From Syntrophales bacterium (lineage in GTDB: Bacteria > Desulfobacterota > Syntrophia > Syntrophales > PHBD01): DNA of 64,000 nt. Numbering within the stretch: position 1 is the stretch's first letter; each line of letters begins with the position of its first letter. Made by a program: the position numbers and the translations under genes. The stretch lies in contig OY764159.1 in the NCBI GenBank assembly GCA_963668175.1, forward strand, positions 1,728,001 through 1,792,000. The letters run 5' to 3'. The notes beneath the pieces are model-generated. The model had not been told where the DNA came from and ran no database searches. It was given only the letters and a program-made list of their open reading frames with translations. Below, one piece after another: positions 27,237 to 51,159 of the stretch.

Positions 27237-27444
27237 CATGTGGTCATTTTTCGTCGTCAAATGCTTATTCATTTCATCATGTTAAAATAGCGCATATTAC
27301 TCTTAATCAGTAGGTTGTCGGTTCGATCCCGACAGGGCTCACCATGAAATACAGGGGTTTCGAGCGTTTCCGCTTGGAACCCCTTTTTTCGTTTCTCGTC
27401 AAATCTCGTCATTTTTAACCAGTTCTGCACCCAAAATGCACCCA
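27237..27444 (+). repeat. att junction B (conserved left arm + tRNA-Lys 3' core + right arm)
   Basis: Core 27299-27344 is identical to 24455-24500; left arm shared with junctions C and D; right arm similar to 24501-24600. Confidence 0.9.
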
Positions 27445-27832
27445 CTACGCAATCTTCATTTTCCCCATTTCGGCCTTCATCATTTCATCAACGACCGGGA
27501 GGAATTCTCAACCCCCTGACACGATTCTTTCGGTGGAATCATGAAGTCATGTTTGTTCTCCGTCTCCTTCGGGCAATTCAACCATGTTGTCAATCAGGAC
27601 CCGCTGCCCAATCACTAATAATTAGAGGATATACTGCTTGGGAGTGCGCAAACGGTTAGGGAGTAATAACGCCCGTGACTCTTTCGAGACTATCCTGTCC
27701 CCCATATCCTTTTGGGGCAACTTGTGATAAATTCACTCCCAATAAAAGATAAAAACTCAGGGAGGCATTAGGGTGGAGAAGTTCATCCGTTGCGGTCCCG
27801 GAGGGCAAATTATTAACCAATACAGGATAAGT

Positions 27833-29500
27833 ATGAAATATAAACAAACTTATGCGGAAGTGAAGAAGGGCAACGACCTGTTAGAGGCGGAGATCAAGCG
27901 GCAGGCCAAGTTAAAAAGAGCCCTCATAGAGACAGAGAGTTTCTACCGAACGATCTGGGAAAGCTCGCTCACCGGCCTCTACATCGCCCAAAACGGCATT
28001 TTCCAGGCCGTTAACCCCATCCCGGCCCTGTTCACAGGCTACAGCAAAGATGATCTCGTGGGAAAGAAATCGGACAGCATCATCCATCCCGACGACAAGG
28101 AGGCCGTAAAGAAAAACGCCCACGCGATGCTTCTGAAAAAGAGCTCCACGCCCTACGAATTCAGAATCCTCTCTAAGGACAAACATATCCGCTGGGTCAT
28201 GGAATACGTCGCGCCTACGACTTATAACGGAAAGCCGGCAATCCTCGGCAATTTCATGGACATCACCGCCCGGAAGGACTTTGAATCGAAACTGAAAGAA
28301 TCGGAGAACCTTTACCGGACCATCTTTGAAAATACAGGTTCGGCAACGATCATCATCGAGGACGACATGACCGTCTCCCTCATGAACTCCGAGTTCGAAA
28401 GGATGACGGGATACCGAAAGGAAGAGTGGGAAGGGAAGAAGAAGTGGATCGAATATATCTCGAAAGAACAGCAGCCCTGGATGAAAAAATACCATAAACT
28501 GCGGAGACTCAATCATGAGGCCGCCCCACGCCGCTACGAACACGAGATCATCCGCAGTGATGGGAGTGTCGTTAGCGTTCTGATCACCATCGACATGATT
28601 CCCGGTACCAAGAAGAGTGTCGCCTCCCATACGAACATCACCGATTGGAAAAAGGCCCAAGAGAAACTGAAGGAATCTGAAAATCTTTACCGCGCGATTT
28701 TTGAAACGACTGGGGCCGCAACGGTCATCATGGAAGACGACATGACTATCTCCCATATGAACTCGGAGTTCGAGCGGATGACGGGCTATCGCAGAGAGGC
28801 ATGGGAAGGAAAGAAAAAATGGACCGAATACGTCCTTAATGAAGATCTTCCTTGGATGATTGATTACCATACTCAACGTCGCCTCGACCGCAGCGCTCCC
28901 CCGCGGAACTACGAGCATCGGCTGGTGGACAGCAAAGGGAGGATCAGGCATATGTACCTTACCGTCGATATGATCCCCGAAACGAAAAAGAGCCTCGCGT
29001 CCTTCGTGGATGTTACGGACTGGAAGGAGGCGGAAACCCGCCTGAAGAAAAGAGAAGAAGAACTCCAGGCCAAGTCCCGGAACCTTTCGGAATTAAACAC
29101 GGCCCTTCGTGTCCTCTTGAAACAGCGTGAAGATGACCGCGAAGAGTTCGAGGAAAAGGTGCTGTCCAACGTCAGGGAATTTGTCCTGCCTTACGTTCAA
29201 ACATTGAAAAAAAGTAAGATGCCGGCGAAAGACCTGGCCTATGTGGGCATTCTGGAGTCGAATATTCAGGACATCATCTCGCCATTCGCCCGCAAGATTT
29301 CGTCCAAGTACATGCAGCTCACGCCCAAAGAAGTGCAGATAGCCTACTTGATCAAGGAAGGCAAGACCAGCAAGGAGATCGCCGAGGCGATGAATCTCTC
29401 CAAGTGTGCCGTCGATATCCACCGTTACCGGCTCCGGAACAAACTGGGCCTGAACAACAAGAAAGCCAACCTGAGAATGCACCTGATGAACATTTCATAA
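27833..29500 (+). CDS. Multi-PAS domain LuxR-family transcriptional regulator
   Basis: Three PAS/PAC repeats (IHPDDK..., ESENLYR.IFE.TG twice); C-terminal LTPKEVQIAYLIKEGKTSKEIA...HR..LRNKL HTH. Confidence 0.9.
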   Translation: MKYKQTYAEVKKGNDLLEAEIKRQAKLKRALIETESFYRTIWESSLTGLYIAQNGIFQAVNPIPALFTGYSKDDLVGKKSDSIIHPDDKEAVKKNAHAMLLKKSSTPYEFRILSKDKHIRWVMEYVAPTTYNGKPAILGNFMDITARKDFESKLKESENLYRTIFENTGSATIIIEDDMTVSLMNSEFERMTGYRKEEWEGKKKWIEYISKEQQPWMKKYHKLRRLNHEAAPRRYEHEIIRSDGSVVSVLITIDMIPGTKKSVASHTNITDWKKAQEKLKESENLYRAIFETTGAATVIMEDDMTISHMNSEFERMTGYRREAWEGKKKWTEYVLNEDLPWMIDYHTQRRLDRSAPPRNYEHRLVDSKGRIRHMYLTVDMIPETKKSLASFVDVTDWKEAETRLKKREEELQAKSRNLSELNTALRVLLKQREDDREEFEEKVLSNVREFVLPYVQTLKKSKMPAKDLAYVGILESNIQDIISPFARKISSKYMQLTPKEVQIAYLIKEGKTSKEIAEAMNLSKCAVDIHRYRLRNKLGLNNKKANLRMHLMNIS

Positions 29501-29504
29501 TTTG

Positions 29505-29583
29505 TTACAAATTTTCCACAATTTTTGTAATATTTATGTAATTAGCGTTTGATAATATTACAATTTCGTGACAACTTTTGTAA
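29505..29583. promoter_or_regulatory. Two TTACAA-N14-TTGTAA palindromes upstream of hbd (candidate operator)
   Basis: 29505-29530 and 29558-29583, offset 53 bp, in an AT-rich intergenic region. Confidence 0.55.
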
Positions 29584-29744
29584 CATTCATCAAACATTGA
29601 TTAAAACCCTTCCTTGCCCCTAAATACACCCATCACAATAAAACTGGTCCGCGGCAGTCCAAGCAGCATCTATGATCGGGCCCGACATTTCGGGACTTTC
29701 GCGGAAGTGCCGGTTTTCCACCCAACACAAGGAGTAGATTAACT

Positions 29745-30608
29745 ATGAAAATCAATACAATAGGAGTAATCGGGGCGGGGAACATGGGGCGTCAGATCGC
29801 CCTGCAGTGCGCCCTGTCGGGTTTCGAGGTTTACTGCACGGACACGATCGCCGTTGTTCTGCAAAGCGCCGAGGCCTTTTCGCGCAAGTGGCTCGCCGAC
29901 CGCGTCGCCAAGGGCAAGATGGCCGAGGATGAAGCGAAGACGGTAGGCGCCCGCCTGCACTATACGGCCGAACTGGCCGAGGCCGCCAAGGGCGCAGACC
30001 TCATCATCGAAGCCATCATCGAGATATTGGAAACGAAGCGGACGCTCTTCAAAGAGCTGGACAAGCTCTGTCCGGCCCACACGATCCTTGCGACCAACAG
30101 CTCGTACATCGTGAGTTCCAGGATCGCCGACGCCACGAAACGGCCCGACAAGGTCCTGAACATGCACTTCTTCAACCCGGCCCTCGTCATGAAGCTCGTC
30201 GAGGTCGTCCAGGGTCCCCACGTCTCCGACGAAACGGTCGAGACGGTCATCGAAGTCGGCAAGGCGTTGGGCAAGGTGCCCACACGGGTGAACAAGGAGA
30301 TCTACGGCTTCATCTGCAACCGGATGTTCAGCGCCATCACCAAGGAGGCCTGCTATCTCCTGGATCTGGGCATCGCCTCCATCGAAGACATCGACAACGC
30401 CGCGAAGAACGGCCTGGGGCATCCGATGGGTCCCCTGCAGCTCCTCGACATGACGGGCATCGACCTCGAATACTACGTCTCCATGGAACGTTACCAGGAG
30501 ACGCGGAACCTCGCCGACAAGCCGAGTCCCGGCCTCGTGGAGCGTTACGCCCGGGGCGACTACGGCAGGAAGACGGGCAAGGGATTCTACGATTACACGA
30601 AGAAGTGA
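29745..30608 (+). CDS. hbd: 3-hydroxybutyryl-CoA (3-hydroxyacyl-CoA) dehydrogenase
   Basis: GVIGAGNMG, IEAIIE, ATNSS, MHFFNP, GHPMGPL. Confidence 0.9.
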   Translation: MKINTIGVIGAGNMGRQIALQCALSGFEVYCTDTIAVVLQSAEAFSRKWLADRVAKGKMAEDEAKTVGARLHYTAELAEAAKGADLIIEAIIEILETKRTLFKELDKLCPAHTILATNSSYIVSSRIADATKRPDKVLNMHFFNPALVMKLVEVVQGPHVSDETVETVIEVGKALGKVPTRVNKEIYGFICNRMFSAITKEACYLLDLGIASIEDIDNAAKNGLGHPMGPLQLLDMTGIDLEYYVSMERYQETRNLADKPSPGLVERYARGDYGRKTGKGFYDYTKK

Positions 30609-30639
30609 GACGGCGACGTTTTCCGGAAAGGATAGAGAC

Positions 30640-31404
30640 ATGAATTACGAAAACATTCAGTTCGCGGTGAGCGGGGCGACGGCCGTTTTAATGCTGAACC
30701 GTCCGAAGGCGATGAACGCCCTGAACCGCGCGCTTGTGGACGAACTGGACCATGCCGTGGACCGGATCGCGAACGACCCGTCCATCGCGGCGGTTGTCCT
30801 CTCGGGCGAGAAGAACTTCGCGGCGGGGGCGGACATCACGTCGATGGTGGAGATGGACCCGGAAGCGGCGAAGGCGTTTGCCTTCACGCCGGCGTATCAG
30901 AAGATCGAAGACCTGGCAAAGCCGACGATTGCCGCGATATCGGGCTTCGCCCTGGGGGGCGGCCTGGAGCTGGCCCTGGCGTGCGACATCCGGATCGCCG
31001 GTCCCGATGCGAAGCTTGCCTTCCCCGAGATCAATATAGGGATATTCCCCGGCGCCGGGGGGACGCAGCGTCTGCCCCGGCTGGTGGGACCCGCCCGGGC
31101 AAAGGAGCTGATCTTCCTGGGGACGACGCTCGACGCCCAGAAGGCGCTCGAATACGGTCTCGTGAACAGCATCGCGGACGATCCGCTGGATGCGGCCATG
31201 AAGATGGCGTTGAAGCTGGCGGGGAAGCCCGCCGTGGCCCTGGCGCGCGCGAAGGAATGCATCAACATCGCCTCGGAGTCGGGCCTTAAGGCGGGACTGA
31301 AAGCCGAGGCGGAGAAATGGGGCAGCCTCTTTACGACGGCGGACCAGAAGGAAGGCATGCGGGCCTTCCTGGAGAAGAGGAAACCGGTCTACACGGGCCG
31401 ATAA
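30640..31404 (+). CDS. crt: Enoyl-CoA hydratase (crotonase)
   Basis: LNRPKAMNAL, FAAGADI, ALGGGLELALACD, PEINIGIFPGAGGTQRL. Confidence 0.9.
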   Translation: MNYENIQFAVSGATAVLMLNRPKAMNALNRALVDELDHAVDRIANDPSIAAVVLSGEKNFAAGADITSMVEMDPEAAKAFAFTPAYQKIEDLAKPTIAAISGFALGGGLELALACDIRIAGPDAKLAFPEINIGIFPGAGGTQRLPRLVGPARAKELIFLGTTLDAQKALEYGLVNSIADDPLDAAMKMALKLAGKPAVALARAKECINIASESGLKAGLKAEAEKWGSLFTTADQKEGMRAFLEKRKPVYTGR

Positions 31405-31422
31405 CACACAGAAGGAGCAGTT

Positions 31423-32604
31423 ATGAGAGACGTGGTCATTATCGGCGGTGCGAGAACCGCCATTGGAAACTATATGGGATCGCTGGCGGGGTTCAACTCC
31501 GTCGCGCTGGGCATCTTTGCGCTGAAAGGCGCCCTTGAGAAGACGGGGGTGGCCATGGGCGACCTGGAGTGCCTCGTTGCTGGTCACGTGAACCAGGCGG
31601 GTGCGCCGGGGAACTCGGCCAGACACATCGCCATGCGGGCGGGCCTGCCGATTACGTCCTACGCCTACACGGTGCACCAGCAGTGCGCATCGTCCATGCG
31701 TGCGGCGGAGTGCCTGTCCCAGGACATCATGCTGGGGAAGTACGACGTGGGCGTCGTGGTGGGCATCGAGTCCATGAGCACGGCGCCGTATCTCCTGATG
31801 GGCGCCCGGAAGGGATACCGCCTCGGGGATGCGGAAAAGGTGCAGGACAGCCTCATGATCGGGGGCCTGGTCGACGATCTTCTGGGTTATCACATGGGGA
31901 TCACGGCGGAGAACATCGCGGCCGATTACGGGATCACGCGTGAAGAGCAGGACGAGTTTGCCCTCATGAGCAACATGCGGGCGTGCAAGGCGATCCAGGA
32001 GGGGTGGTTCAAGGACGAGATCGTCCCGGTGGAGATCAAGACGAAGAAGGGGATATCCGTCTTCGATACGGACGAGCATCCGCAGGCGAACACGTCGATG
32101 GAGGCGTTGGCGAAGCTGAAGCCCGCCTTCAAGAAGGACGGGACGGTGACGGCGGGGAACGCCTCCGGACTGAACGACGCGGGATCGGCCCTGATCATGA
32201 TGTCGGCGGAAGCGGCGAAGGCGAAGGGCTTCAAGCCTGTCGCCAGGGTCGTCGCCTCCTCCCCCGGTTCGGTGGAGCCCCGGATCATGGGCATGGGTGT
32301 GGTTCCCGCGGTGCGTAACGCCCTGAAGTTCGCGGGGCTTTCGCAGGACCGGATCGATTACTGGGAGCTGAACGAGGCGTTTGCGGCGCAGGTTTTGGGA
32401 GTGAACCGCGAGTTGAAGATCGGCCTGGACCGCGTGAATGCCGTGGGCTCGGGGATCGGCCTGGGTCATCCGGTGGGTGCGACGGGCGCGCGTCTCATCA
32501 TCACCATGATCAACGAGATGAAGCGCCGGGGCGTGAGATACGGCTGCGCCTCCCTGTGCGCAAGCGGCGGACCCGCCCATGCGTTTATCGTCGAATCTAT
32601 CTAA
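31423..32604 (+). CDS. Acetyl-CoA acetyltransferase (thiolase)
   Basis: QQCASS (catalytic Cys), NEAFAA, GHPVGATG, SLCASGG. Confidence 0.93.
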   Translation: MRDVVIIGGARTAIGNYMGSLAGFNSVALGIFALKGALEKTGVAMGDLECLVAGHVNQAGAPGNSARHIAMRAGLPITSYAYTVHQQCASSMRAAECLSQDIMLGKYDVGVVVGIESMSTAPYLLMGARKGYRLGDAEKVQDSLMIGGLVDDLLGYHMGITAENIAADYGITREEQDEFALMSNMRACKAIQEGWFKDEIVPVEIKTKKGISVFDTDEHPQANTSMEALAKLKPAFKKDGTVTAGNASGLNDAGSALIMMSAEAAKAKGFKPVARVVASSPGSVEPRIMGMGVVPAVRNALKFAGLSQDRIDYWELNEAFAAQVLGVNRELKIGLDRVNAVGSGIGLGHPVGATGARLIITMINEMKRRGVRYGCASLCASGGPAHAFIVESI

Positions 32605-32641
32605 CGCAGCGATTGCGAAACCATATAATGGAGAAGAGAAT

Positions 32642-33778
32642 ATGAATTTTCAAGTATCTGAAGAACACGAAGCCTTAAGGACCATGGCCCATAAATTTTC
32701 TGAACAGGAGATATTGCCCGTTATCCTGGAATACGATGAGAAAGGGGAGTTTCCCTGGCCCATCGTCAATAAAATGCACGAAGTCGGCCTGCTGACCGCC
32801 GGTGTGCCGGAAGAGTATGGTGGACCCGGTATCGACATGCTGGGCCAGATTATCGTCACGGAAGAGATCGCCTACGGCTGCGGCGGCTGCGCCGCGACCA
32901 TGGCGGCAAGCAGCCTGCTGTCGCCTGAGCCGGTCGTCGTCGGCGGCACCCCGGAACAGAAGAAGATGTACTTCGACGTCCTGAACGAAGGCAAGCTGGG
33001 CGCCTTCTGCCTCACCGAACCGGGAGCGGGTTCCGATGTCGCGGGGCTTTCGATGACGGCCAAGCGCGACGGCGACTACTACATACTGAACGGCACGAAA
33101 CAGTTCATTACGAACGGCGGCGTAGCCGACATATACACTGTCTTCGCCACCACGGACAAGAACCTCCGTTTCAAGGGAATCGTCGGCTTCATCGTTGACC
33201 GCAAAACTCCCGGCGTCTCCGTCGGACCGGAAGAAAAGAAGATGGGCATCTGCACCTCCGATACCCGCCAGGTGATCTTTGAGGATGTACGCGTACCCGT
33301 TGCCAACCGGCTCGGCGAGGAGGGCAAGGGGTTCGGCGTCTGCATGCAGGCCCTCGACCTCTCCCGCCCCTCCGTGGCGGCGGAGGCCATCGGCATCGCC
33401 CTCCGGGCCTTCGAGATTGCGGTGAAGTATTCCCAGGAGAGGACGGCCTTCGGGCAACCCATCGCAAGCCTCCAGGCTATCCGTTTTATGCTTGCGGACA
33501 TGGCCATGAGCATCGAAGCGGCGAGACTTCTCACTTATAAGGCCTGCTGCCTCGCCATGGCCAAACAGCCGTTCAATTATATGGCATCTTATGCCAAGTG
33601 CTTCGCCGCCGATATGGCGATGAAGGTCACGACCGACGTTGTCCAGATCCTGGGCGGCTACGGATATCTGAGGGAATATGGCGCGGAAAAATGCATGCGG
33701 GATGCGAAAGTCATGCAGATCTACGAAGGCACGAACCAGATCCAGCGCGTCGTGATCGCCAACCACATCTACAAATAG
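32642..33778 (+). CDS. Short-chain (butyryl-CoA-type) acyl-CoA dehydrogenase
   Basis: FCLTEPGAGSD, NGTKQFITNG, GGYGY, QIYEGTNQIQR. Confidence 0.9.
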   Translation: MNFQVSEEHEALRTMAHKFSEQEILPVILEYDEKGEFPWPIVNKMHEVGLLTAGVPEEYGGPGIDMLGQIIVTEEIAYGCGGCAATMAASSLLSPEPVVVGGTPEQKKMYFDVLNEGKLGAFCLTEPGAGSDVAGLSMTAKRDGDYYILNGTKQFITNGGVADIYTVFATTDKNLRFKGIVGFIVDRKTPGVSVGPEEKKMGICTSDTRQVIFEDVRVPVANRLGEEGKGFGVCMQALDLSRPSVAAEAIGIALRAFEIAVKYSQERTAFGQPIASLQAIRFMLADMAMSIEAARLLTYKACCLAMAKQPFNYMASYAKCFAADMAMKVTTDVVQILGGYGYLREYGAEKCMRDAKVMQIYEGTNQIQRVVIANHIYK

Positions 33779-33796
33779 AAGCGGCCGGAGGCACAT

Positions 33797-35131
33797 ATGA
33801 ACTTCAAGGAAGAGTATCAGCGAAAGCTGGTAACAGCGGAGGAAGCGGTCAAGGCCGTGAAATCCGGCGATTGGGTGGATTACGGGTCCTTCGCCGGCCA
33901 GACGGTCCTTCTTGACCGGGCCCTGGCCAAACGCCGGGACGAACTGACCGACGTAAAACTCCGCGGCACGCTGCGAATGGTGATGCCGGAAGTTGTCAGG
34001 GAGGACCCGACGACGGAACACTTCTGCTTCAACAGCACCCACTTCAGCGGGCTGGAACGGAAGCTGGGCGACGACAATTTATGCTGGTATCTGCCGGTCC
34101 TGTATCATGAACAACCTCGGTATTACAGGGAAAACATCCCAACGGATGTCCTTCTCCTTACCGTGGCGCCTATGGACGAATGGGGTTATTTCAATTTCGG
34201 ACCCCAGGTCTCGTGCACCATGGCCCTGTGTGAGTCGGCAAAAACGATCATCTGCGAAGTGAATCCGAATGTTCCCCGTTGCGGAGGGGGTTCGCAGGAA
34301 GCCATCCACATTTCGCAGGTCGACTACATCGTCGAGGCAGATTGGCCCCTCAGCGAGTTGCCGAACATCATACCCAGCGATACGGACCGGCAGATTGCCG
34401 GTCTCATTATGGAACACATCGAGGACGGCAGTTGCCTTCAACTCGGCATCGGCGGCATGCCCAACGCCGTCGGCGCCATGATTGCCGAATCGAACCTGAA
34501 GGACCTGGGCATCCATACGGAGATGTTCGTCGACTCCTTTGTCCAAATGGTCGAATCGGGGCGCGTCACAGGAGCGAAGAAAAACGTCGACAAGTACAAG
34601 ATCGTCTGTACCTTCGCCCTGGGCTCGAAGAAAACTTATGATTTCGTTAACAACAATCCACGGATTGCGTTTTATCCGGTGGACTACACCAACGACCCTT
34701 TCATCATAGCTCAGAACGATAAGGTCGTGGCCATCAATAACTGCGTAGAAGTCGATCTTACAGGACAGGTCTGTTCCGAGTCATCGGGCGTAAGGCAAAT
34801 CAGCGGCACGGGCGGACAGTTCGACTTTACCTACGGAGCCTATCGCTCCCGTGGAGGGAAGTCGTTCCTCTGTCTCGCATCGACTTACACCAAGAAAGGA
34901 GGAATGAAATCCCGGATAAAGCCGGTTCTCACGACCGGCGCCACCGTAACCGTGCCAAGAACGGCTGTGCAGTACCTGGTTACTGAGTACGGCGCCGTTA
35001 ACCTCAAAGGGAAAACCACGTGGGAACGGGCCGAGGCTATTATTTCCATCGCGCATCCCGACTTTCGCGAGGAACTTATTCAGGGTGCCCGGGAAATGGG
35101 GATATGGCGAAAGAGCAATAAAATAATTTGA
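33797..35131 (+). CDS. Acetyl-CoA hydrolase/transferase family CoA-transferase (butyrate or 4-hydroxybutyrate type)
   Basis: [42 protein letters not shown]. Confidence 0.9.
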
Positions 35132-35153
35132 TTTTAAAAGTGAGGGAAAGGGG

Positions 35154-36455: not shown

Positions 36456-36577
36456 AATAGGAGTTAAGAACCTACGGAACGGACGGCAGATACAGCCAGG
36501 ACCTTTTAGAACGGGGTGCTTGATATCTGCCGTCCGTCCTACCGTCCGACAAGGAACAGACATCAGAGGATTTGACC

Positions 36578-37105: not shown

Positions 37106-37144
37106 ACATGGCGACAAAAGATTTCAAAAGAAAGGAGCAAACAT

Positions 37145-39127: not shown

Positions 39128-39338
39128 AAGCGGCATGACGGTCCGGTTTTCAATCAAAACCGTCAGAAATTTTCATTGCCGGCTGCATTGATGCGGAGAA
39201 TGATAGAGAGGAATGATCCATAACATAGGAAATATTCTTTTTGATCAGATATCCCCTGCCGGGATTCTTTCATGATCGCCTTATTGCTCGCGCAGAAGAG
39301 TGGGTTCTGCATGACATTAAAGATTAACGAAGCGCCGA

Positions 39339-39481: not shown

Positions 39482-39831
39482 GATTGATTGCTGACCCATT
39501 GATTTGATATCCTCATGGGTGAAGGAGTCTGCCGTCGGACGACTCCGTTCTCCAAAGATAATGAATTGTTATCACCTGCAAGTCTCTGCAATCAGTATTT
39601 GCTGCTGACTGTTTAAAACCTTGATCTCGATCCAACCCTTTATATCGTTCCCATCTTCATTTAGACCGGTTATTATAAAATAGGAGAAGAGAGTCTGCAC
39701 GCCGGAAGGCAGATTGATTCTGATTGTTTGATATTTGTGATCGTCTATGCTATCGGAGTGACATCGACATAGCTGTAATCATTCATAAACGCTTGTCCTA
39801 ATGATCTAAAACATAAGGTGGCTCACCGGCT

Positions 39832-41421: not shown

Positions 41422-41819
41422 TCCACGCGACCGTCCGAAAAGGGTTGCTGCTATCCCCTTGATAAAAGTTACCGGTCTTATCCTTGCCCGGCCTGCGTGA
41501 ACATCTCAAGATAGATAGCAATATCGTCAATATATTCAATAGATGTACATTGTGCCGCCCTCCGTATGCTTCGCATCGAAGCGAATCCGGCCATTGGAAA
41601 ACCATGAGAAAATATACAGGGTCCATCATGGATTATCCAACGTTGCCATCCTCTGCAAACCTGTTATGCTCCACGCCGAAAAAGGTGGTTACTTCATTTC
41701 CGTCCAGTTCATTTACGAGATAACAATTTAATATAGCGACATCATGCCTGCACGGTGTTCAGCGACATCCCGGCAACGGGGATTGGTTTGCGAAACCGAG
41801 ACTTAAGGAGGATTGCATC

Positions 41820-42764
41820 ATGAAAGTATCCAAGGTCATGACGGCCAAGGAAGCGGTTTCCAGGTTTATCGATGACGGAATGACGGTGGCGATCGGCAGT
41901 TTCTTCCACACGATTGCTTATGACGTCACCCACGAAATCATCCGCCAGGGAAAGAAGCACCTCACCATTTGCGCGCCGAGTTTCAACGATCATGCCGATC
42001 AATTGATCGGGGCGGGATGCGTCGACCGGATCGAATCGTCCTACGTCTGGATGGAGGTATTCGGGCCTCTTTACAGCTTCAGGAGGGCGATTGAACAAGG
42101 GATCCCGCACAAAGTGGAAATGGAGGACTATACCAACTTTGCCATGACGGCGCGGCTGCTCGCCGGCGCGCTCGGCCTTCCCTATGTGCCGGTTCATTCC
42201 ATGAAGGGAAGCGATATGATGCGCTGTTCTTCCTGGAAAGGAGAAAACAAGGTCAGGCTGCTTAAGGATCCGTTCGGCAGCGGAGCGGAGCACGCCCTTG
42301 TCCCCGCCCTCACGCCGGATATCGGCTATATCCATGCGCAGCGAGGCGACGACGAAGGCAACTTCCAATTATGGGGAATTATGGGAGACGCTCCTTTCAG
42401 CATGAGGGCCTGCAAGCAGGTCATTGTCTCGGTTGAAGAGGTCGTGAGCCGTGACGTAATCGGACGCGATCCGAACCGGACCGTTATTCCGGGATATAAG
42501 GTCGTTGCCGTGATCGAAGCGCCCTTCGGCTCTCATCCCAAGAACTGTCAGGGCCACTACGGCGTCGACAAGGATTTTATCTTTAAATACATCCGCGAAT
42601 CCCGGACGGAAGAGGGTTGGAAAAAATTCATGGACGAATGGGTCTTCGGTGTGGCCGACCGATCGGAATATCTGAAGAAGTATGTCGATACGTTCGGGAT
42701 GGGGAAGTTCCTTAGTTTAAAAGCGAAGGATATGAGTTCCGGCTGTGTCAATTACGGATTTTAA
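41820..42764 (+). CDS. CoA-transferase alpha subunit (glutaconate CoA-transferase GctA-like)
   Basis: HEIIRQG, DQLIGAG, AGALGLPY, IHAQRGD..GN, EAPFGSHP. Confidence 0.88.
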   Translation: MKVSKVMTAKEAVSRFIDDGMTVAIGSFFHTIAYDVTHEIIRQGKKHLTICAPSFNDHADQLIGAGCVDRIESSYVWMEVFGPLYSFRRAIEQGIPHKVEMEDYTNFAMTARLLAGALGLPYVPVHSMKGSDMMRCSSWKGENKVRLLKDPFGSGAEHALVPALTPDIGYIHAQRGDDEGNFQLWGIMGDAPFSMRACKQVIVSVEEVVSRDVIGRDPNRTVIPGYKVVAVIEAPFGSHPKNCQGHYGVDKDFIFKYIRESRTEEGWKKFMDEWVFGVADRSEYLKKYVDTFGMGKFLSLKAKDMSSGCVNYGF

Positions 42765-42775
42765 GGGGGCGGATC

Positions 42776-43555
42776 ATGACTGAAAAATATACCGATTTTA
42801 CTCTGCAGGAACTGATGGCTGTCGCAGCGGCGAGGGAAATTCAAGACGGAGAAAAAGTCATCATCGGAACGGGACTCCCGCTCTTGGCGGCGTTTCTGGC
42901 TCAGAAAACCCATGCTCCCAATATGATGGCCATATACGAATCCGGGGCCATTGATTGCAGGCCCGCCGTTACGCCCTTGTCGGTAGCGGACGCCGTGCTG
43001 GTCCCGGGGGCCGCTATGCAGGGGGGGCTTATCGAAGCCCTCGGTATTGTCCATAAAGGAGAACTCGACGTGGGATTTCTTGGCGGTGCCCAGATAGACA
43101 AATACGGCAATCTCAACACGCATGTCATCGGCGATTATTACAGCCCGAAGGTACGCTTCGCGGGAAGCGGGGGATCGAACGATATCGGCGCCGGCTGCAA
43201 AAGAACGATCGTCATGATGCTCCACCAGAAGCAGCGTTTTCCCGAAAAAGTCGATTTCGTCACGACGCCGGGCTATTTCGGCGGACCCGGTCAGCGGGAA
43301 CAAATGGGCTTTCCGGGAGGCGGCCCCAGCGTCGTCGTTTCGACGATGGGCATTCTTCGCTTTCACCGGGAAACGAAAGAAATGTACCTCGAATCGTACC
43401 ATCCCGGGGTGGCCGTCGAACAGATCAAGGCCACGACCGGATGGGACCTTATGGTTGCCGAGAACGTCAGGGAAACGGAGCGGCCTTCGCCCGACCTGAT
43501 CAGGATTCTGCGGGAAGAGATCGATCCCACGGGGGTCTTTTTGAAGAAGCAATAG
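42776..43555 (+). CDS. CoA-transferase beta subunit (GctB-like)
   Basis: IGTGLP, IYESG (catalytic Glu), GGAQIDKYGNLN, GSGGSND. Confidence 0.88.
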   Translation: MTEKYTDFTLQELMAVAAAREIQDGEKVIIGTGLPLLAAFLAQKTHAPNMMAIYESGAIDCRPAVTPLSVADAVLVPGAAMQGGLIEALGIVHKGELDVGFLGGAQIDKYGNLNTHVIGDYYSPKVRFAGSGGSNDIGAGCKRTIVMMLHQKQRFPEKVDFVTTPGYFGGPGQREQMGFPGGGPSVVVSTMGILRFHRETKEMYLESYHPGVAVEQIKATTGWDLMVAENVRETERPSPDLIRILREEIDPTGVFLKKQ

Positions 43556-43564
43556 GAAGGAGGA

Positions 43565-44347
43565 ATGGAATCGTTCATGGAAGAAAAGAAGGACATCATC
43601 ATTTTCACGAGAAAAGACGGCGTGGCGGTTTTGACTTTTAACCGCCCCGAGTCTTTAAACGCGTTGAACAAGAATGTCAATTTAAGGCTCATCGAGTTTC
43701 TTCTCCAGGCGGAAGCGGACCCCGATATCAGGGTCGTCGTTCTGACGGGCTCGGGAAAGGCTTTCGTTGCCGGAGGCGATATCAAGGAGATGTATGGAAA
43801 GGATGCGATGGAAGCAAGGGCTTATGCCCTTCAGGCAAAGCGGGTTACGGATACGATCTGGAACCTGGGCAAACCCGTCATCGCTGCGATTAACGGTCTG
43901 TGTCTCGGCGGAGGGTTGGAGTATGCCATGGCTTGCGACCTGAGGACCGCTTCGGAGAACGCGAAGTTCGGGCAGCCCGAAATCAATATCGGGATCATGC
44001 CGGGAAGCGCGGGGACGCAGAGGCTTCCACGCCTGATCGGCATGACGAAGGCCAAGGAGTTCTGTTTTACCGGCGTCATGTTCGACGCAAGAACGGCGTT
44101 CGATCTCGGTTTGGTCAACTATGTCTACCCCGCTGCCTCCTTCATGGAAGAGACGCTCGCGCTGGCAGGACAAATCGCTGCCAAGTCGGCACCGGCCCTC
44201 AAGCTGATCAAGTCGGCGATCAACCACGGGGCGGATGCGGACATCGAGACCGGATCGCTCTTTGAAATCGACTGCTTCGGCCTTTGCTTCTCGACGCAGG
44301 AGCAGAAAGACAGCATGAGGGCCTTTGTGGAAAAGAGCGGAAAATAA
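43565..44347 (+). CDS. Enoyl-CoA hydratase
   Basis: NRPESLNAL, FVAGGDI, LGGGLEYAMACD, QPEINIGIMPG. Confidence 0.9.
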   Translation: MESFMEEKKDIIIFTRKDGVAVLTFNRPESLNALNKNVNLRLIEFLLQAEADPDIRVVVLTGSGKAFVAGGDIKEMYGKDAMEARAYALQAKRVTDTIWNLGKPVIAAINGLCLGGGLEYAMACDLRTASENAKFGQPEINIGIMPGSAGTQRLPRLIGMTKAKEFCFTGVMFDARTAFDLGLVNYVYPAASFMEETLALAGQIAAKSAPALKLIKSAINHGADADIETGSLFEIDCFGLCFSTQEQKDSMRAFVEKSGK

Positions 44348-44371
44348 GGCGGAGAAAGGAGAAAAAGAGCA

Positions 44372-45229
44372 ATGTCGGAAAAGATAACCGTGATCGGTGC
44401 GGGCACCATGGGTGCCGGAATTGCGCAGATCGCGATGGAAGCTGGATTTGAAGTCGCCCTGGTCGATACGGAGCAGAAATTCGTCGACCGGGGCGTGGAG
44501 GGCATCGGAAAGTTTCTGGAACGCAAAATCGCCAAAGGGACGTACACGCCGGAACAGGGCAAAGCTATAGAAGGACGGCTGACGGGTACGACGGACATGA
44601 AGACGGGCGTCGAAGATGCCGCCATGGTTGTCGAGGCGGTTTTCGAGAATATCGATCTCAAAAAGAAGATCTTCCAAACGCTCGATGCCTTGTGTCCGGA
44701 AGAAACGATCCTTGCCAGCAACACCTCGACCCTGAGCATATCGCTCATTTCATCGGCGACCAGCAAACCGTCCCGCGTCATCGGGACCCATTATTTCAGC
44801 CCGGTGCCGCTTATGCGTCTGGTGGAAGTCATCAGGGGCGATAAAACGTCCGAGGCGGCGACGATGAAGACCGTGGAGCTCTGCAAGAGGTTCGGCAAGA
44901 CCCCCATCGTAGTCAAGGATATTCCGGGATTCATCGTCAACCGGTTCCTTTGTCTTCTCTATAACGAAGCGGCCAACATGGTCGGAAAGGGTCTGGCCAC
45001 GGCGGAAGACATCGATACCGCTCTCAAACTCGGCTGCAACTGGCCCATGGGCGTCGCCGAGATCATGGACATGGCCGGCGTGGACGTGGTCCTTTACGCC
45101 ATGCGCGCGATGTATTCCATGACGGGGGAAGAGCGTTACAAACCTTCACCCCTTCTGGAGGCGATGGTGGCGGAAAACAGACTGGGAAGGAAGACGGGCA
45201 AGGGATTTTACACAGGAGGGAAGTCATGA
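44372..45229 (+). CDS. 3-hydroxyacyl-CoA dehydrogenase
   Basis: VIGAGTMGAGIA, EAVFE, ASNTS, THYFSP, GRKTGKGFY. Confidence 0.9.
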   Translation: MSEKITVIGAGTMGAGIAQIAMEAGFEVALVDTEQKFVDRGVEGIGKFLERKIAKGTYTPEQGKAIEGRLTGTTDMKTGVEDAAMVVEAVFENIDLKKKIFQTLDALCPEETILASNTSTLSISLISSATSKPSRVIGTHYFSPVPLMRLVEVIRGDKTSEAATMKTVELCKRFGKTPIVVKDIPGFIVNRFLCLLYNEAANMVGKGLATAEDIDTALKLGCNWPMGVAEIMDMAGVDVVLYAMRAMYSMTGEERYKPSPLLEAMVAENRLGRKTGKGFYTGGKS

Positions 45230-46446
45230 AGAAGAATGATGTTGTCATCGTAAGCGCCGTCCGGACGCCCTTCGGGCGATACGACGGCGTTCTGAAAAAT
45301 GTTTTAAGCATGGATCTCGGTGTCCTGGCGGTGAAGGAAGTCATCGCGAAGATCGGTCTCGACGCGTCGCAGGTGGACGAACTCTATTACGGCACATGCA
45401 TTCCGGCGGAATACGCCATATACACAAACGTGCCGGCGCGGCAGATCACGCTGCTTGCGGGGTTTCCGGAAAAGAACATTTCCCTCACGATCGACCGGGC
45501 GTGCTGCTCCTCGATGACGGCGCTCCGCCTGGGCTGCCGCGCCATCAAGTCCGGCGATGCCGAGGTTGTGATTGCAGCCGGAGCGGAGAATATGGGCAAT
45601 ACGCCGCTTATCGCAGGCGCCGCGAAGGCCCGCTGGGGAGCGCGCCTGGGACCGATCGAACTGGAGGACGTGCTTTTTGAGCTGGGATACGGACGTAAAG
45701 GCTTTGCGCCCGTCGCGACCGACGCGGGCTTCGTGGCCGAGGAATTCGGCGTGACCAGACAGATGCAGGACGAATGGGCACTGCAAAGCCATGAGCGGTA
45801 CAACCAAGCCTTCAAGGATGGGAAGTTCAAAGTGGGCGAAGAGCTGATGCGGATCGATATCCCCCAGAAAAAAGCCCCCGTCGTACTCGAACGTGACGAA
45901 TCGCCCCGGGAGAACCTCAGCATGGATAAGCTGGCGGCCCTGAAGACCGTTTACGGCAGCCCCACGGTCACCGCCGGCAATGCGCCGGGGCTGAACTCCG
46001 GAGCGTCGGCCATGGTCCTGATGAGCCGGGAAAAAGCGGAGTCCCTGAATCTCAAGCCTATGGCTGAAATCGTTGCCTGCGAAAGCGGGGCAGGGACCCC
46101 GAAGTATATGGCGTGCGTTCCCGCCGAAACCATTGAGAAGATGTTCGCAAAATCGAATAGGACCATTGACGATGTCGATCTCGTTGAAATCAACGAAGCC
46201 TTTGCGGCCGTGACCCTGGTTTCGCTCAAGATGCTTGCCGGCGGCGATCCGAAGAAACTCGATGAGCTGAAAGACAAGACCAATGTCAACGGCGGGGCGA
46301 TCGCCATCGGTCATCCGGTCGGTGCGAGCGGCGCCAGGATCACCATGACCATGATGTACGAACTCATGAGGCGGGGCGGAGGCACGGGCGTGGCCGCCAT
46401 CTGCGGAGGACTGTCACAGGGCGAAGCGCTCATGCTCAGGGTATAA
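45226..46446 (+). CDS. Thiolase (acetyl-CoA C-acyltransferase)
   Basis: RTPFG, DRACCSS, EINEAFA, GHPVGASG, AICGG. Confidence 0.92.
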   Translation: MKKNDVVIVSAVRTPFGRYDGVLKNVLSMDLGVLAVKEVIAKIGLDASQVDELYYGTCIPAEYAIYTNVPARQITLLAGFPEKNISLTIDRACCSSMTALRLGCRAIKSGDAEVVIAAGAENMGNTPLIAGAAKARWGARLGPIELEDVLFELGYGRKGFAPVATDAGFVAEEFGVTRQMQDEWALQSHERYNQAFKDGKFKVGEELMRIDIPQKKAPVVLERDESPRENLSMDKLAALKTVYGSPTVTAGNAPGLNSGASAMVLMSREKAESLNLKPMAEIVACESGAGTPKYMACVPAETIEKMFAKSNRTIDDVDLVEINEAFAAVTLVSLKMLAGGDPKKLDELKDKTNVNGGAIAIGHPVGASGARITMTMMYELMRRGGGTGVAAICGGLSQGEALMLRV

Positions 46447-46458
46447 TCATTAAAGGAG

Positions 46459-47613
46459 ATGAAGAAGATGGATTTCAGATTGACGGAAGATCAGATCATG
46501 CTGAGGGACACCGTCCGACGGATCGCCTCGGAAAACTTTGCCCCGAAAGCGGCCGAAATAGACGAGAAAGAAATTTTCCCGGAAGAGAACTATAAAATAC
46601 TTGCGGAAAACGGGCTGCTCGGCATCCAGATTCCGGAAGAATACGGCGGGGCGGGAGCAGGCATGCTTTCGATGATTCTTGCGATCGAGGAGGTTGCAAA
46701 GGCTTGTGCCTCTACTTCGGTCATGATGACGACGCAAGCCCTCGCCAGCGATCCTTTTCTTATTGCCGGAAACGAGGAACAGAAGAAAACGCTCCTGTAC
46801 CGTCTTGCCTCGGGGCAGTGCCTCGGGGCGGTGGGCATCACGGAGCCCGGCGCCGGTTCCGATGTGGCGGGAATGAAGACCATGGCAACGAAGGTGGACG
46901 GCGGGTATGTCCTGAACGGAGCGAAGATATTCATCACGGACGGCGGCGTTTCCGAACTGGCTACGATCCTCTGCTACACGGATAAAGCCAGGAGTAACAG
47001 AGGAATCAGCATGTTGGTCGTCGAAAAGGGAGCCAAGGGCTTCACGGTCGGAAAGAAGGAGCACAAGATGGGGATTCGCGGCTCCGACACGCGGGAACTC
47101 ATCCTGGATGACGTATTCGTTCCGGATTCGCACCTCCTGGGGCCTGAGGGCACAGGGTTCAAGACGCTGATGACAACATTCAATTACACGAGGCCCGGCG
47201 TCGCCGCCCAGGCGCTCGGCATCGCCCAGGGCGCTTTCGATGCCGCGGTCCATTATGCGAAAGAGAGGGTTCAGTTCGGAAGAAGTCTGGCATCGTTTCA
47301 GGGGCTGCAATGGATGATATCCGAAATGGCGCTTCAGATAGAGTTGGCAAGAACCATCACCTATAGGGCTGCGTCGCTCATAGACAATGATCCGGATTCG
47401 CCGGATATCCCCCGGCTGGCGTCCATGGCGAAATGGCACGCCTCGGATACCGCCATGAAAGTCACAACGGATGCCGTTCAGATATTCGGCGGCTATGGAT
47501 ACATCAGGGAGTATCCCGTGGAAAGAATGATGCGCGATGCGAAGATCACGCAAATCTATGAAGGAACGAACCAGATTCAGCGGATGATCATCGCGGGGCA
47601 GATCCTGAAATGA
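46459..47613 (+). CDS. Acyl-CoA dehydrogenase
   Basis: ITEPGAGSD, NGAKIFIT, GGYGY, QIYEGTNQIQR. Confidence 0.92.
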   Translation: MKKMDFRLTEDQIMLRDTVRRIASENFAPKAAEIDEKEIFPEENYKILAENGLLGIQIPEEYGGAGAGMLSMILAIEEVAKACASTSVMMTTQALASDPFLIAGNEEQKKTLLYRLASGQCLGAVGITEPGAGSDVAGMKTMATKVDGGYVLNGAKIFITDGGVSELATILCYTDKARSNRGISMLVVEKGAKGFTVGKKEHKMGIRGSDTRELILDDVFVPDSHLLGPEGTGFKTLMTTFNYTRPGVAAQALGIAQGAFDAAVHYAKERVQFGRSLASFQGLQWMISEMALQIELARTITYRAASLIDNDPDSPDIPRLASMAKWHASDTAMKVTTDAVQIFGGYGYIREYPVERMMRDAKITQIYEGTNQIQRMIIAGQILK

Positions 47614-47713
47614 CGGATTGAAGAAGCGAAAGGAAGGGGGTGATGCCCGGAAGCAGCAGACGACAGATAGTTTCAGATGTTCGCAAACAAATAAAGAGAG
47701 GGGATATGCAACT

Positions 47714-49030
47714 ATGTCAAATCAAGCTATTGCGACACAGTCTATATCGGTAGCCAAACCTGAAAGCGGCACCAGGTGGTTTGTCGTTTTCTGGCTCGCC
47801 ATGGGGACGATGATCAATTACATCGACCGCGTGAATTTCGGTGTCGCGACACCGACGTTGATGAAGGAGTTCAATCTCGGTACGGCAGAGATGGGCATTC
47901 TGATGTCGGCCTTCTTCTGGTCCTATACGCTGATGATGCTCCCTTCAGGGTATTTTCTCAATAAGATCGGGCCGAAGAAGGTTCTCGGTATTGCGGGCAT
48001 TGCCTGGGGCGCCGTAACGATGCTGGTCGCTGCCTGTTCGGGATTCGCTTCATTCCTTGCCCTTCGCATCGGCATAGGCGTTACCGAAGCGCCGGCCTTC
48101 CCGGCCAATGCACGGGTTGTCTCCGTGTGGGTTCCGAAACGGGAAAGGACGTTCGCCTCGGCCATATTCGACTGCTCGGCCAGAGCCGGGAGCGCGTTTG
48201 CTCCGCCAATGGTTGCCTTCATTATTGCCGCCTGGGGCTGGAAGATGTCCTTTGTCCTGACCGGCGCCCTGGCCGTGGTGTGGGGCTTCCTATGGTTCCT
48301 CTGGTATCATGAGCCGTCGGACCATCCGAAGATCACGGCGTCCGAATTGGCCTATATCCGCCAGGACGAGGTCGTTCACAGCGACGGCACGGTCCAGAGC
48401 CATCCCATACCCATGACCCGATTGGTGACGTATCCGGTTATTTTAAAGGCAACGCTCGGTTATGCTCTATATCTTTATGTATGGACGGTCTTTCTCTACT
48501 GGATTCCCACCTATCTGATGAAGGTAAGGGGGCTGTCGCTGAAGGAGATGGGGATAGCGGCCTCTATTCCGTACATTGTGGCCGTCTTCGGGGAGCTCCT
48601 GGGCGGTAAAGTATTCGATAAATGGTACGACAGGGGTGCAACCACCACCGCATTGAGGCGAACAGGAATGGGAATCGGTATGTTCGGCGCGGCTGTCTTC
48701 ATCTGGATGTGCATGCAGGCGACGACGCCGTTCTGGGCGATTTTCTGGCTGAGCGCCTTTGCGGGAATCTTCGCCTTCGGCGCCTCCAATGTCTGGGCCA
48801 TTCCGAGCGACATCGCCCCTTACGGCCAGGCGGGCGGCGTGGGCGGCGTCTATAATTTCGTCGGCAATTTCGGCGCCCTTTTTGCCCCGATCGTTACCGG
48901 GTATCTCGCGGCATCCGCTTACGGATTCAACGGTGCTTTCGCGATTTGCGTGGTTTTCTCCATCGTCGGCGGCTTGCTCTTTGTGTTCAACTCATACGAG
49001 AGACTGAAACCGAAAACTCAGGACCTTTAA
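47714..49030 (+). CDS. MFS transporter (close paralog of 35154-36455)
   Basis: INYIDRVNFGVATP, SELAYIRQDEVV and IPSD.APYGQAGGV are shared with the module-2 MFS. Confidence 0.9.
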   Translation: MSNQAIATQSISVAKPESGTRWFVVFWLAMGTMINYIDRVNFGVATPTLMKEFNLGTAEMGILMSAFFWSYTLMMLPSGYFLNKIGPKKVLGIAGIAWGAVTMLVAACSGFASFLALRIGIGVTEAPAFPANARVVSVWVPKRERTFASAIFDCSARAGSAFAPPMVAFIIAAWGWKMSFVLTGALAVVWGFLWFLWYHEPSDHPKITASELAYIRQDEVVHSDGTVQSHPIPMTRLVTYPVILKATLGYALYLYVWTVFLYWIPTYLMKVRGLSLKEMGIAASIPYIVAVFGELLGGKVFDKWYDRGATTTALRRTGMGIGMFGAAVFIWMCMQATTPFWAIFWLSAFAGIFAFGASNVWAIPSDIAPYGQAGGVGGVYNFVGNFGALFAPIVTGYLAASAYGFNGAFAICVVFSIVGGLLFVFNSYERLKPKTQDL

Positions 49031-49513
49031 GATGCCATATCGAACGCCAAATCTGAAATAAGAACCTGCCTCCTCCTCATGCAGGAGGTCAAGTTGTTCC
49101 ACCACAGCAGCTCTGACCTCCTGCACGACGGAAGGAACGAAACCCGAAACTTAAACGGGGTTGTATCTGACTACAGTGATGCGGAATGTCGGCACGCTAA
49201 TGGGGTATGGCATGGCTTGTTGATTGTCGTTTGTAATGTTCACTGCCGACTTGGATTATTGTCCAATTGGCTACAGGAAAACATCTTGATCCGCAATCTT
49301 CCTTCCTTACACCTGTTTTCAGAAATGCATCATCCGGAATCGATTAAGATGAGATCGCTTTCTATGGTCATTAGAAGCACACGGGTGACTGGAAAACGCT
49401 CAGGGCTGAAAGGACCGCTTTCTTCTCCAAGAACGAACCGGCGTCCCAAAACGGGTCCGGTTTTGAATCAAGCCTTGGGGAGAGGGTCGTTTCCATGATC
49501 TGTTCTCCGGTGG

Positions 49514-49661
49514 CACGTGGTCATTTTATGTCGTCAAACCTGTCTTCATACCAACAGATGAAAATAGCGCACATTTCTCTTGACCAGCAGGTTGTCGGTT
49601 CGATCCCGGCAGGGCTTACCGAATATCAAGGGGTTGCGAAATTCGTAACCCCTTCTTTTTT
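49514..49661 (+). repeat. att junction D (degenerate)
   Basis: Core 49576-49621 has 7/46 mismatches to the tRNA 3' end; conserved left arm; right arm resembles that of C and includes TATCAAGGGGTTG. Confidence 0.8.
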
Positions 49662-51156: not shown

Positions 51157-51159
51157 CTT

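What the first reader, a model, noticed from the sequence alone, without database searches (positions are those of the whole stretch)
27237..49661. Junction arms are conserved with exact spacing: recombinase arm-type and IHF-like sites
Seen: each junction has a left arm CAYGTGGTYATTTT(W)(Y)GTCGTYA starting at 27237, 39339 and 49514. AAAATAGCGCAYATT begins exactly 47 nt later in all three (27284, 39386, 49561) and abuts the core, while the spacer between the blocks has diverged. The first block is a direct repeat (GTGGTCA/GTCGTCA). A similar CTCGTCA pair lies in the right arms of the tRNA and junction B (24551-24568, 27394-27411), followed by a TGCACCCA pair (27426-27444). Right arms fall into two families, tRNA/B and C/D, each with its own terminator hairpin. 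D has a perfect IHF consensus WATCAANNNNTTR (49624-49636) and C a one-mismatch version (39449-39461). Inference: conserved motifs and spacing with a drifting spacer point to selection for protein binding by one integrase family.
Basis: partly seen in the sequence, partly recalled or inferred. Interest (0 to 1): 0.72.

Follow-up and report, generated by a model that had tools for sequence, protein, structure and literature searches.

The report
Stacked island ends at lysine tRNA
The three look-alike stretches are seams between gene islands stacked behind a lysine tRNA gene; their conserved blocks likely are docking sites for the integrases that probably inserted them, none of which is encoded in the stack today, which is a known way for bacteria to collect foreign genes.

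Summary
The motifs and the 47-nt spacing are real and recur at two more junctions outside the window. They mark five integrase-less metabolic islands (about 81 kb) stacked at tRNA-Lys(CTT). The first heptamer of block 1 behaves like an arm-type site. In 11 of 16 related elements that carry an integrase or its stub, the element's own left-end repeat reappears exactly 56-66 nt before the crossover heptamer (12% in swapped pairs), and block 1 lies at -60. 'One integrase family' is wrong. Left arms match one tyrosine-integrase group. The right arms of the tRNA and junction B match another, and B keeps the last ~16 codons of that second integrase, the top score of 391,719 ORF ends. At least one island therefore decayed from an integrase-bearing element. 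The IHF-like match at C/D is a common tRNA trailer in this order (8 of 51 tRNA/tmRNA genes here) and is missing at four of six sites. The spacer is only partly diverged. No cognate integrase was found in the genome, and excision could not be tested. Verdict: tandem accretion with CIME-like decay, a known kind. The scan has noted similar arrays in other genomes.

The parts
24425..24500 (+). Intact tRNA-Lys(CTT) gene, the integration target; anticodon-loop heptamer at 24456-24462 is the inferred crossover region
   Evidence: ARAGORN; every duplicated 3' half begins at or next to this heptamer
24501..24600 (+). Right arm of the tRNA (left end of island E1): terminator hairpin, CTCGTCA-type pair (24552-24568), degenerate second pair (about 24581-24599); group II type, no integrase stub
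   Evidence: (alignment with B's right arm), compared with G110, G176, G125, G252, G161
24501..27299 (.). Island E1, 2.8 kb, GC 0.50: protein-kinase-domain ORF (24772-26742, minus) and a 5'-truncated ABC ATPase gene (26870-27235, minus) that ends at the edge of block 1
   Evidence: Pfam; tblastn similarity runs to within a few codons of block 1
27237..27259 (+). Junction B block 1; first heptamer (27240-27246) is the reverse complement of the TGACCAC repeat of group I elements, at -60: inferred arm-type integrase site
27260..27283 (+). Junction B spacer, partly conserved; a 2-mismatch IHF-like 13-mer starts at -28 (27272)
27284..27299 (+). Junction B block 2, abutting the crossover heptamer: inferred core-type integrase site
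   Evidence: position only
27300..27344 (+). Junction B core: 3' 45 nt of tRNA-Lys, 0 mismatches
27345..27444 (+). Junction B right arm: terminator, CTCGTCA pair (27395-27411), TGCACCCA pair (27426-27444); group II type
   Evidence: (same layout in G161's second element)
27445..27498 (-). Stub of a group II tyrosine integrase gene: last ~16 codons and stop, placed like the end of the intact integrase in G161's second element
   Evidence: (26.4 bits, next best 3.8, of 391,719 ORF ends)
27345..39401 (.). Island E2, 12.1 kb: PAS-LuxR regulator, 3-hydroxyacyl-CoA dehydrogenase, enoyl-CoA hydratase, thiolase, acyl-CoA dehydrogenase, CoA transferase, MFS, Usp, HpaB-family gene; no integrase
39339..39401 (+). 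Junction C left arm: block 1 (39339-39361), spacer with a 1-mismatch IHF-like 13-mer at -28, block 2 (39386-39401)
39402..39481 (+). Junction C core (1 mismatch, heptamer intact) and terminator with IHF-like trailer; group I type terminator, no intact arm-repeat pair behind it
39447..49576 (.). Island E3, 10.1 kb: PAS-LuxR regulator, CoA transferase subunits, beta-oxidation-type genes, MFS; no integrase
49514..49576 (+). Junction D left arm: block 1 (49514-49536), spacer, block 2 (49561-49576)
49577..49661 (+). Junction D core (6 mismatches, one in the heptamer), perfect IHF-pattern trailer (49624-49636) overlapping the terminator stem; no intact arm-repeat pair behind it
49622..64000 (.). Island E4 (15.1 kb, runs to junction E at genome 1792670-1792777, just outside the window): 2-oxoacid/acetoin-dehydrogenase-like cluster, KARI, MFS, lipoyl genes, sigma-54 regulator; no integrase

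Best explanation
The sites are junctions in a row of five gene islands, none with an integrase gene, behind tRNA-Lys(CTT), likely built by repeated site-specific integration of tyrosine-integrase elements that then probably lost their mobility genes by deletion. Each integration would cross over in the anticodon-loop heptamer, rebuild the tRNA with a new terminator and left end, and push the old 3' half and older islands outward (inferred). Block 1's first heptamer is the inferred arm-type site of group I integrases (G021/G179 type), block 2 the inferred core-type site, and the partly kept spacer probably holds a weak IHF-type bend site. The left ends at the tRNA and at B come from a second integrase group (II), so E1 and E2 are mosaics, most simply made by deletion across two neighbouring elements (inferred). 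The blocks stay alike because they were selected in the active donor elements. Today most islands are probably fixed or can move only with a neighbour (CIME-like).
For: Shown: five junctions with the same left arm and a tRNA 3' half. No PF00589 or PF00239 match lies in the array, and no group I or II integrase was found in G000. A group II integrase stub sits at B, the top score of 391,719 ORF ends, with a weaker trace at F (3 of 2000 random windows score as high). In 16 related elements with both ends and a group I/II integrase or stub, the own left-end repeat recurs exactly at -56 to -66 in 11, against 29 of 240 swapped pairs, nearly all of them between elements sharing a repeat type. Three repeat types covary (TGACCAC, TGACTAC, TGGCCAC). 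G000's arms carry inverted TGACCAC at -60 with 0-1 mismatch in B, C, D, E. They align best with group I arms (z 6.9, 6.0, 5.3 for G179, G125-Thr, G042) and poorly with group II arms (z 0.3-2.1). A contig 99.6% identical to G000 upstream of the tRNA (G021:C5) has a different occupant there: a 41-kb element with an intact 333-aa group I integrase, Rep3 and an exact block 1, followed by a second left end with a 62-aa integrase stub. Integrase stubs at this tRNA also occur in G042, G195, G028, G176 and G064. Decay increases outward: core mismatches 0, 1, 6, 6, 5, with the heptamer altered in D, E and F, and no intact TGACCAC pair in any right arm (best 5-6 mismatches of 14). This three-step history is described for CIMEs (PMC5704250, passage).
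Against: No binding or recombination was tested. Only E2 (and weakly the island beyond F) shows an integrase stub; E1, E3, E4 and E5 show no trace of mobility genes. All five left arms belong to one narrow sub-lineage (block 1 pattern in only 2 real hits among 239 genomes) and begin near the same edge, which random decay does not require. E1 and E2 share the same group II/group I mosaic, which would need two similar deletions or a mosaic that moved as such. Left arms look better kept than the right-arm repeats. Decay is not strictly monotonic (F has fewer core mismatches than D and E). The related elements are not independent (G064/G028 and G176/G125 are near twins), and for G028 and G042 the two ends lie on different contigs and were paired by assumption.
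Confidence: 0.72

Rival explanations
1. The islands are maintained non-autonomous cassettes. They were trimmed to minimal ends and are integrated or shuffled in trans by a visiting group I integrase (or one that reads the GTCA repeats at both ends), making an integron-like collector of acid-catabolism operons.
For: Five successive left arms from one sub-lineage with fixed spacing; ABC gene cut right at block 1; E1, the newest island (core 0 mismatches), has no integrase trace and a decayed group II pair but a kept CTCGTCA pair; a group I integrase element with the same block 1 occurs on a near-identical contig; cargo of E2-E5 is mostly metabolic.
Against: No intact group I repeat pair in any right arm; heptamer mutated in D, E, F; no cognate integrase in the genome; integrase stub at B shows decay from an autonomous element; E3 was found as a unit in none of 238 other genomes, only as 66-77% identical operon pieces; no excision joint among the listed contig joints (a weak test).
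Confidence: 0.15
2. Part of the array was moved or reshuffled by homologous recombination between the 110-150-nt junction repeats, or arrived as a pre-assembled block, so that the similar arms are partly copies of each other rather than ends of five separate integrations.
For: D, E and F cores share two substitutions absent from the present tRNA. Identity between the A and B right arms falls off with distance from the core.
Against: Spacers differ at about 45% of positions while blocks are kept, also out of sample, which recent copying would not give. Right arms fall into at least three terminator types that match different element types in relatives.
Confidence: 0.09
3. The blocks are regulatory DNA, such as a transcription-factor box or promoter for read-through from the tRNA fragment, and not recombinase sites.
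For: In two copies (orphan, G021) TTGACA precedes block 1. The downstream cargo often starts with a regulator gene.
Against: TTGACA is missing in B, C, D, E and F. A terminator follows each core. Position and sequence covary with each element's own left-end repeat across two tRNA targets.
Confidence: 0.04

Closest known systems
CIMEs and tandem accretion of ICEs/IMEs (ICESt1 family; reviewed in PMC5704250, passages read)
   Same: Tandem elements at one target, internal chimeric att junctions, decayed elements that kept att ends but lost integration and transfer genes; neighbours can come from distantly related integrases.
   Different: Five or six such islands in a row with no autonomous member left; functional att sites and cis-mobilisation not shown; outer junctions have altered crossover heptamers.
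Dehalococcoides ssrA genomic islands (PMC3146451, passages read)
   Same: Multiple tandem islands within about 100 kb of one RNA gene, 15 of them without an integration module, carrying catabolic or respiratory cargo in an anaerobe.
   Different: Target is tmRNA and the enzyme a serine recombinase there; here tRNA-Lys(CTT), tyrosine integrases and lambda-type arm repeats.
Lambda-type att architecture, as in KplE1/IntS (PMC2951348, passages read)
   Same: Heterobivalent tyrosine integrase with arm-type and core-type sites and IHF assistance; the layout here (repeat at -60, AT-rich spacer, block next to a 7-nt crossover) fits it.
   Different: Sites here are inferred from position and covariation only; the integrases (about 333-356 aa) reach no NCBIfam cut-off and are uncharacterised.
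Tycheposon islands of Prochlorococcus (10.1101/2020.12.28.424599, passages read)
   Same: Successive integrations separated by partial tRNA copies, new elements pushing older ones outward, fragmented integrases left behind.
   Different: Different host group and integrases; no tycheposon replication module was seen in the array.
Integrons (attI/attC cassette arrays; recalled, not read here)
   Same: A polarised row of integrase-less gene units, newest next to the insertion point.
   Different: No adjacent IntI, no attC-type inverted-repeat sites, units of 3-40 kb with their own regulators, junctions made of tRNA halves.

Membership tests
Tandem tRNA-targeted genomic islands | Intact tRNA followed by direct copies of its 3' end that bound foreign DNA | tested here: met
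   Five 45-nt copies behind tRNA-Lys(CTT); island GC 0.50-0.57 vs 0.60 upstream
Tandem tRNA-targeted genomic islands | Occupancy of the site differs between close relatives | tested here: met
   G021:C5 is 99.6-99.7% identical upstream of the tRNA but carries other elements and lacks E1-E3; it may be a misbinned contig of the same species
CIME (cis-mobilisable element) | No integrase or transfer genes in the element | tested here: met
   PF00589, PF00239 and group I/II profiles find nothing intact in the array; Pfam scans of selected ORFs show no relaxase or T4SS family (not every ORF was scanned)
CIME (cis-mobilisable element) | Derived by decay from an integrative element | tested here: met
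   Met for E2 (integrase stub); weak for the island beyond F; not shown for E1, E3, E4, E5
CIME (cis-mobilisable element) | attL and attR retained | tested here: inconclusive
   Right ends well kept; left-end group I repeats decayed and crossover heptamer altered in D, E, F
CIME (cis-mobilisable element) | Excised or transferred together with an adjacent element | not testable with these tools
   Only assembled contigs hold the stretch
Lambda-type arm-type site | Same short motif in both arms of one element, at a fixed distance from the crossover | tested here: met
   11 of 16 related elements exact at -56 to -66 vs 29 of 240 swapped; G000 arms at -60. Within G000 itself no island has a matched intact pair
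Lambda-type arm-type site | Bound by the integrase N-terminal domain and needed for recombination | not testable with these tools
   Needs footprinting and a recombination assay
IHF site at junctions C/D | Consensus match specific to att junctions | tested here: not met
   At most 1 mismatch after 8 of 51 tRNA/tmRNA genes of G000 (background 0.4%) and after 27 of 60 intact tRNA-Lys and 23 of 51 fragments in relatives; 3-4 mismatches at A, B, E, F. It may still bind IHF
Integron | intI gene and attI beside the array; attC sites | tested here: not met
   No tyrosine recombinase gene within about 300 kb of the array; junctions are tRNA halves

The most novel reading that the evidence does not exclude
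This lineage keeps an integron-like collector at tRNA-Lys(CTT): integrase-free cassettes of acyl-CoA catabolism operons, trimmed to a minimal right arm and a borrowed group II left end, are captured and exchanged in trans whenever a Rep3-type element with a group I integrase visits the cell.
Probability: 0.13. Interest if true: 0.65.

Novelty: new member of a known kind. Interest (0 to 1): 0.3.

Why it matters
As it stands this is a clean, large example (about 81 kb, five islands) of a known process. It shows how an anaerobe, probably of the order Syntrophales (judged from source names on homologous integrases), piles up organic-acid catabolism operons at one tRNA. The by-product is useful: two uncharacterised tyrosine-integrase groups that target tRNA-Lys and tRNA-Thr are linked to predicted arm sites and spacing, which could be tested directly and might give integration tools for a group with few genetic tools (my own knowledge). 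It would matter much more if the islands proved to be cassettes moved in trans.

Tried and rejected
Exact arm patterns in public collections gave nothing real: 0 hits; 2, 5 and 5 hits, none followed by a tRNA half on inspection. The G021 integrase found no relative in viral contigs. A sequence-only model of the arm over 151 genomes found G021 strongly and G042 weakly; the 12 other weak hits were not pursued, and the seven of them I looked at showed no complete arm-plus-core junction. I first took the G021 (group I) integrase as the single cognate enzyme and dropped this when the stub at B proved to be group II. I considered the CTCGTCA pair as the partner of block 1; group II elements that carry it use a different repeat at -61, so this pairing is unsupported but not excluded. 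A resemblance of block 2 to a Xer-type half site was recalled from memory and not tested. Reads could not test excision: four runs of one sample hold the stretch only as contigs, with flat depth (about 42-49) over E1, E2 and the start of E3; no joint between att cores was among the 15 listed (35 not shown); the one raw-read run did not hold the stretch. Small-share runs X1 and X8 were laid but give only fragments. G110's right end could not be found. Literature searches showed no paper on this locus or these integrase groups in their listings; the library lacks most subscription papers, and no supplements were read.
Full report
Observation. The window is G000:1728001-1792000 and holds one tRNA, tRNA-Lys(CTT) at 24425-24500. 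Block 1 and block 2 start exactly 47 nt apart in all three. Invariant columns are 18/23 in block 1, 8/24 in the spacer, 14/15 in block 2 and 2/30 upstream, and each exact block pattern occurs only three times in the genome. The spacer is 13/24 identical in each pair, so it is only partly diverged.

Extent. A profile search of the genome found two more full junctions, E (genome 1792670) and F (1833197), a doubtful sixth (1843381, E=0.01), and two orphan copies near 3.47 Mb. The islands are 2.8, 12.1, 10.1, 15.1 and 40.5 kb, with a possible further 10.1 kb. Cargo is mostly acyl-CoA and 2-oxoacid metabolism, transporters and PAS-LuxR or sigma-54 regulators (50 and 53 chosen ORFs, not all ORFs). 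The genome's six PF00589 and two PF00239 matches all lie far from the array; two of the six are probably XerC/XerD (untested). Core mismatches to the tRNA are 0, 1, 6, 6 and 5 for B to F, and the anticodon-loop heptamer is altered in D, E and F.

Related elements. One contig of G021 is 99.6-99.7% identical to G000 over about 8.8 kb upstream of the tRNA, while G000's downstream flank matches G021 only at about 70%; it may be a misbinned contig of G000's species. At the same tRNA it carries a 41-kb element with an intact 333-aa tyrosine integrase, umuC-like, TraG_N, Cas and Rep3 genes, then an exact block 1, an IS and a different core-proximal arm, and then a second left end with a 62-aa integrase stub. 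G000's orphan copy at 3470793 also follows a Rep3-like ORF, 75% identical to G021's. Across 339 genomes of the order, 197 match the tRNA-Lys 3' pattern and many have two to four copies. I fetched the multi-copy cases I could locate. Two integrase groups emerged, 20-24% identical in a multiple alignment and 30% over the catalytic part: group I (G021-like, 18 of 339 genomes) and group II (G161-second-element-like, 14 of 301). G000 has neither.

Arm test. I took the 16 elements where both ends and a group I or II integrase or stub were at hand, leaving out elements with other integrases and those whose ends could not be paired. For each, a script picked a direct-repeat pair behind the tRNA and sought it in the right end. 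An exact copy lay at -56 to -66 from the crossover heptamer in 11 of 16, against 29 of 240 swapped pairs, nearly all between elements that share a repeat type. Group I copies are inverted (8 exact and 2 with one mismatch of 13; misses were G195, G021 and G194-Thr), group II copies direct (3 of 3). The repeat changes in step at both ends: TGACCAC, TGACTAC and TGGCCAC types. G000's left arms hold inverted TGACCAC at -60 with 0, 1, 0 and 1 mismatches in B to E (F is more decayed) and no good group II repeat. They align best with the group I arms of G179, G125-Thr and G042. The sample is not independent (two near-twin pairs) and two elements were paired across contigs. The second heptamer of block 1 is not kept in other group I arms, and full block 1 was found only in G000 and G021 among 239 genomes, apart from two 3-mismatch hits that I did not follow up. 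Block 2 touches the crossover heptamer, where a core-type site lies in the lambda scheme (PMC2951348, passages); this rests on position alone.

Two families, not one. The right arms at the tRNA and at B have the layout of group II left ends: same terminator type, a CTCGTCA-like pair, then a TGC-type pair. By eye this holds in all five group II elements seen at this tRNA (G161, G176, G125, G252, and G110 with a broken gene). Directly behind B's TGCACCCA pair, on the minus strand, lie 16-17 codons and a stop that match the group II C-terminus. Scored with a matrix of the family's last 17 residues, this is the best of 391,719 ORF ends in the genome, 26.4 bits against 3.8. E2 therefore descends from an integrase-bearing element. 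F's right arm has a weaker trace of the same stub. The C and D terminators match G021's group I left ends, but no right arm in G000 keeps a TGACCAC pair. So E1 and E2 are mosaics, and E3 to E5 have decayed left ends.

IHF. The pattern matches at D and C as stated, but it overlaps the terminator stem. It follows 8 of 51 tRNA/tmRNA genes of G000 with at most one mismatch (3 perfect; background 0.4%) and is absent at A, B, E and F. In relatives it follows 27 of 60 intact tRNA-Lys genes and 23 of 51 fragments. It may be a real IHF site left by past integrations, but it does not single out these junctions. A second candidate lies in the spacer at -28 (1, 2 and 2 mismatches in C, B, D). Relatives have an IHF-like 13-mer between arm repeat and core, perfect in G252 and G179 and with one mismatch in G042, G028, G192, G176 and G125. 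The genome has nine HU/IHF-family genes; I did not sort them.

Mechanism. Shown: the junction anatomy, the lack of integrases, the stub, the covariation in relatives and variable occupancy of the site. Inferred: crossover in the anticodon loop, stepwise insertion next to the tRNA, protein binding to the blocks, and loss of mobility genes by deletion. This matches the integration, decay and accretion route to CIMEs (PMC5704250, passage), the Dehalococcoides ssrA islands, 15 of which lack an integration module (PMC3146451, passages), and the island growth described for Prochlorococcus (10.1101/2020.12.28.424599, passages). Confidence 0.72. What this reading explains least well: five left arms from one narrow lineage, an ABC gene cut at the very edge of block 1, and the same mosaic twice. 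These keep open a system of cassettes moved in trans (0.13-0.15). Against that, E3 occurs as a unit in none of 238 other genomes, and contig data could not show excision.

Verdict. Observation confirmed, interpretation partly supported, new member of a known kind, interest 0.30. Earlier notes of this scan describe similar integrase-less arrays at other tRNAs in other genomes; I read them after reaching this reading and did not check them. No look-alike of this sequence was on record.

Noticed in passing
G000:C1:3468354-3470866 (L004/L005): Two orphan junction copies away from any tRNA-Lys flank a 2.4-kb piece with a Rep3-like ORF; the second keeps block 1, block 2 and only 11 nt of core, like the right end of an element at a secondary site. 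The region shares pieces with the G021 element.
   Followed up: partly
window 49577-49621; genome 1792733 and 1833260: Cores D, E and F share two substitutions absent from the present tRNA gene, and F's loop heptamer reads with the Thr anticodon CGT; group I elements also target tRNA-Thr(CGT).
   Followed up: no
G021:C5 (L072-L075, L143): This contig is 99.6-99.7% identical to G000 upstream of the tRNA and holds an IS about 99% identical to six or more copies in G000, although G021 is filed in another family; possibly misbinned.
   Followed up: partly
L072-L073 (G021:C5 about 23600-31500): A type I-C-like Cas cluster (Cas3, Cas5d, Csd1, Cas7, Cas4, Cas1) rides inside the 41-kb tRNA-Lys element with TraG_N, ApeA-like and Fic genes.
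   Followed up: no
window 24772-26742 (minus): 656-aa low-GC ORF with a protein-kinase domain is the main cargo of the newest island E1; no NCBIfam cut-off reached.
   Followed up: partly
tRNA 3' flanks in G000 and relatives: An IHF-consensus 13-mer forming the 5' stem of the terminator follows many intact tRNA genes across the order; its role is unexplained.
   Followed up: partly
left ends of group II elements at tRNA-Lys(CTT) (L091, L099, L137, L162, L177; window 24552-24568, 27395-27411): All carry a 10-nt-period GTCA pair that resembles a group I arm repeat in reverse orientation, in front of their own TGC-type pair. The binding partner is unknown.
   Followed up: partly
L096 (G192:C7:335097-342173): A 7-kb element in another family shows the same mosaic: group II-type left end, group I-type right end, no integrase hit.
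   Followed up: partly
window 27773-29500 and 39832-41421; 33582-33776 and 47417-47611: E2 and E3 are paralogous in plan: each opens with a PAS-LuxR regulator followed by a beta-oxidation-type operon and an MFS gene; G000 has a further 72% identical operon piece at 1672102-1677597.
   Followed up: no
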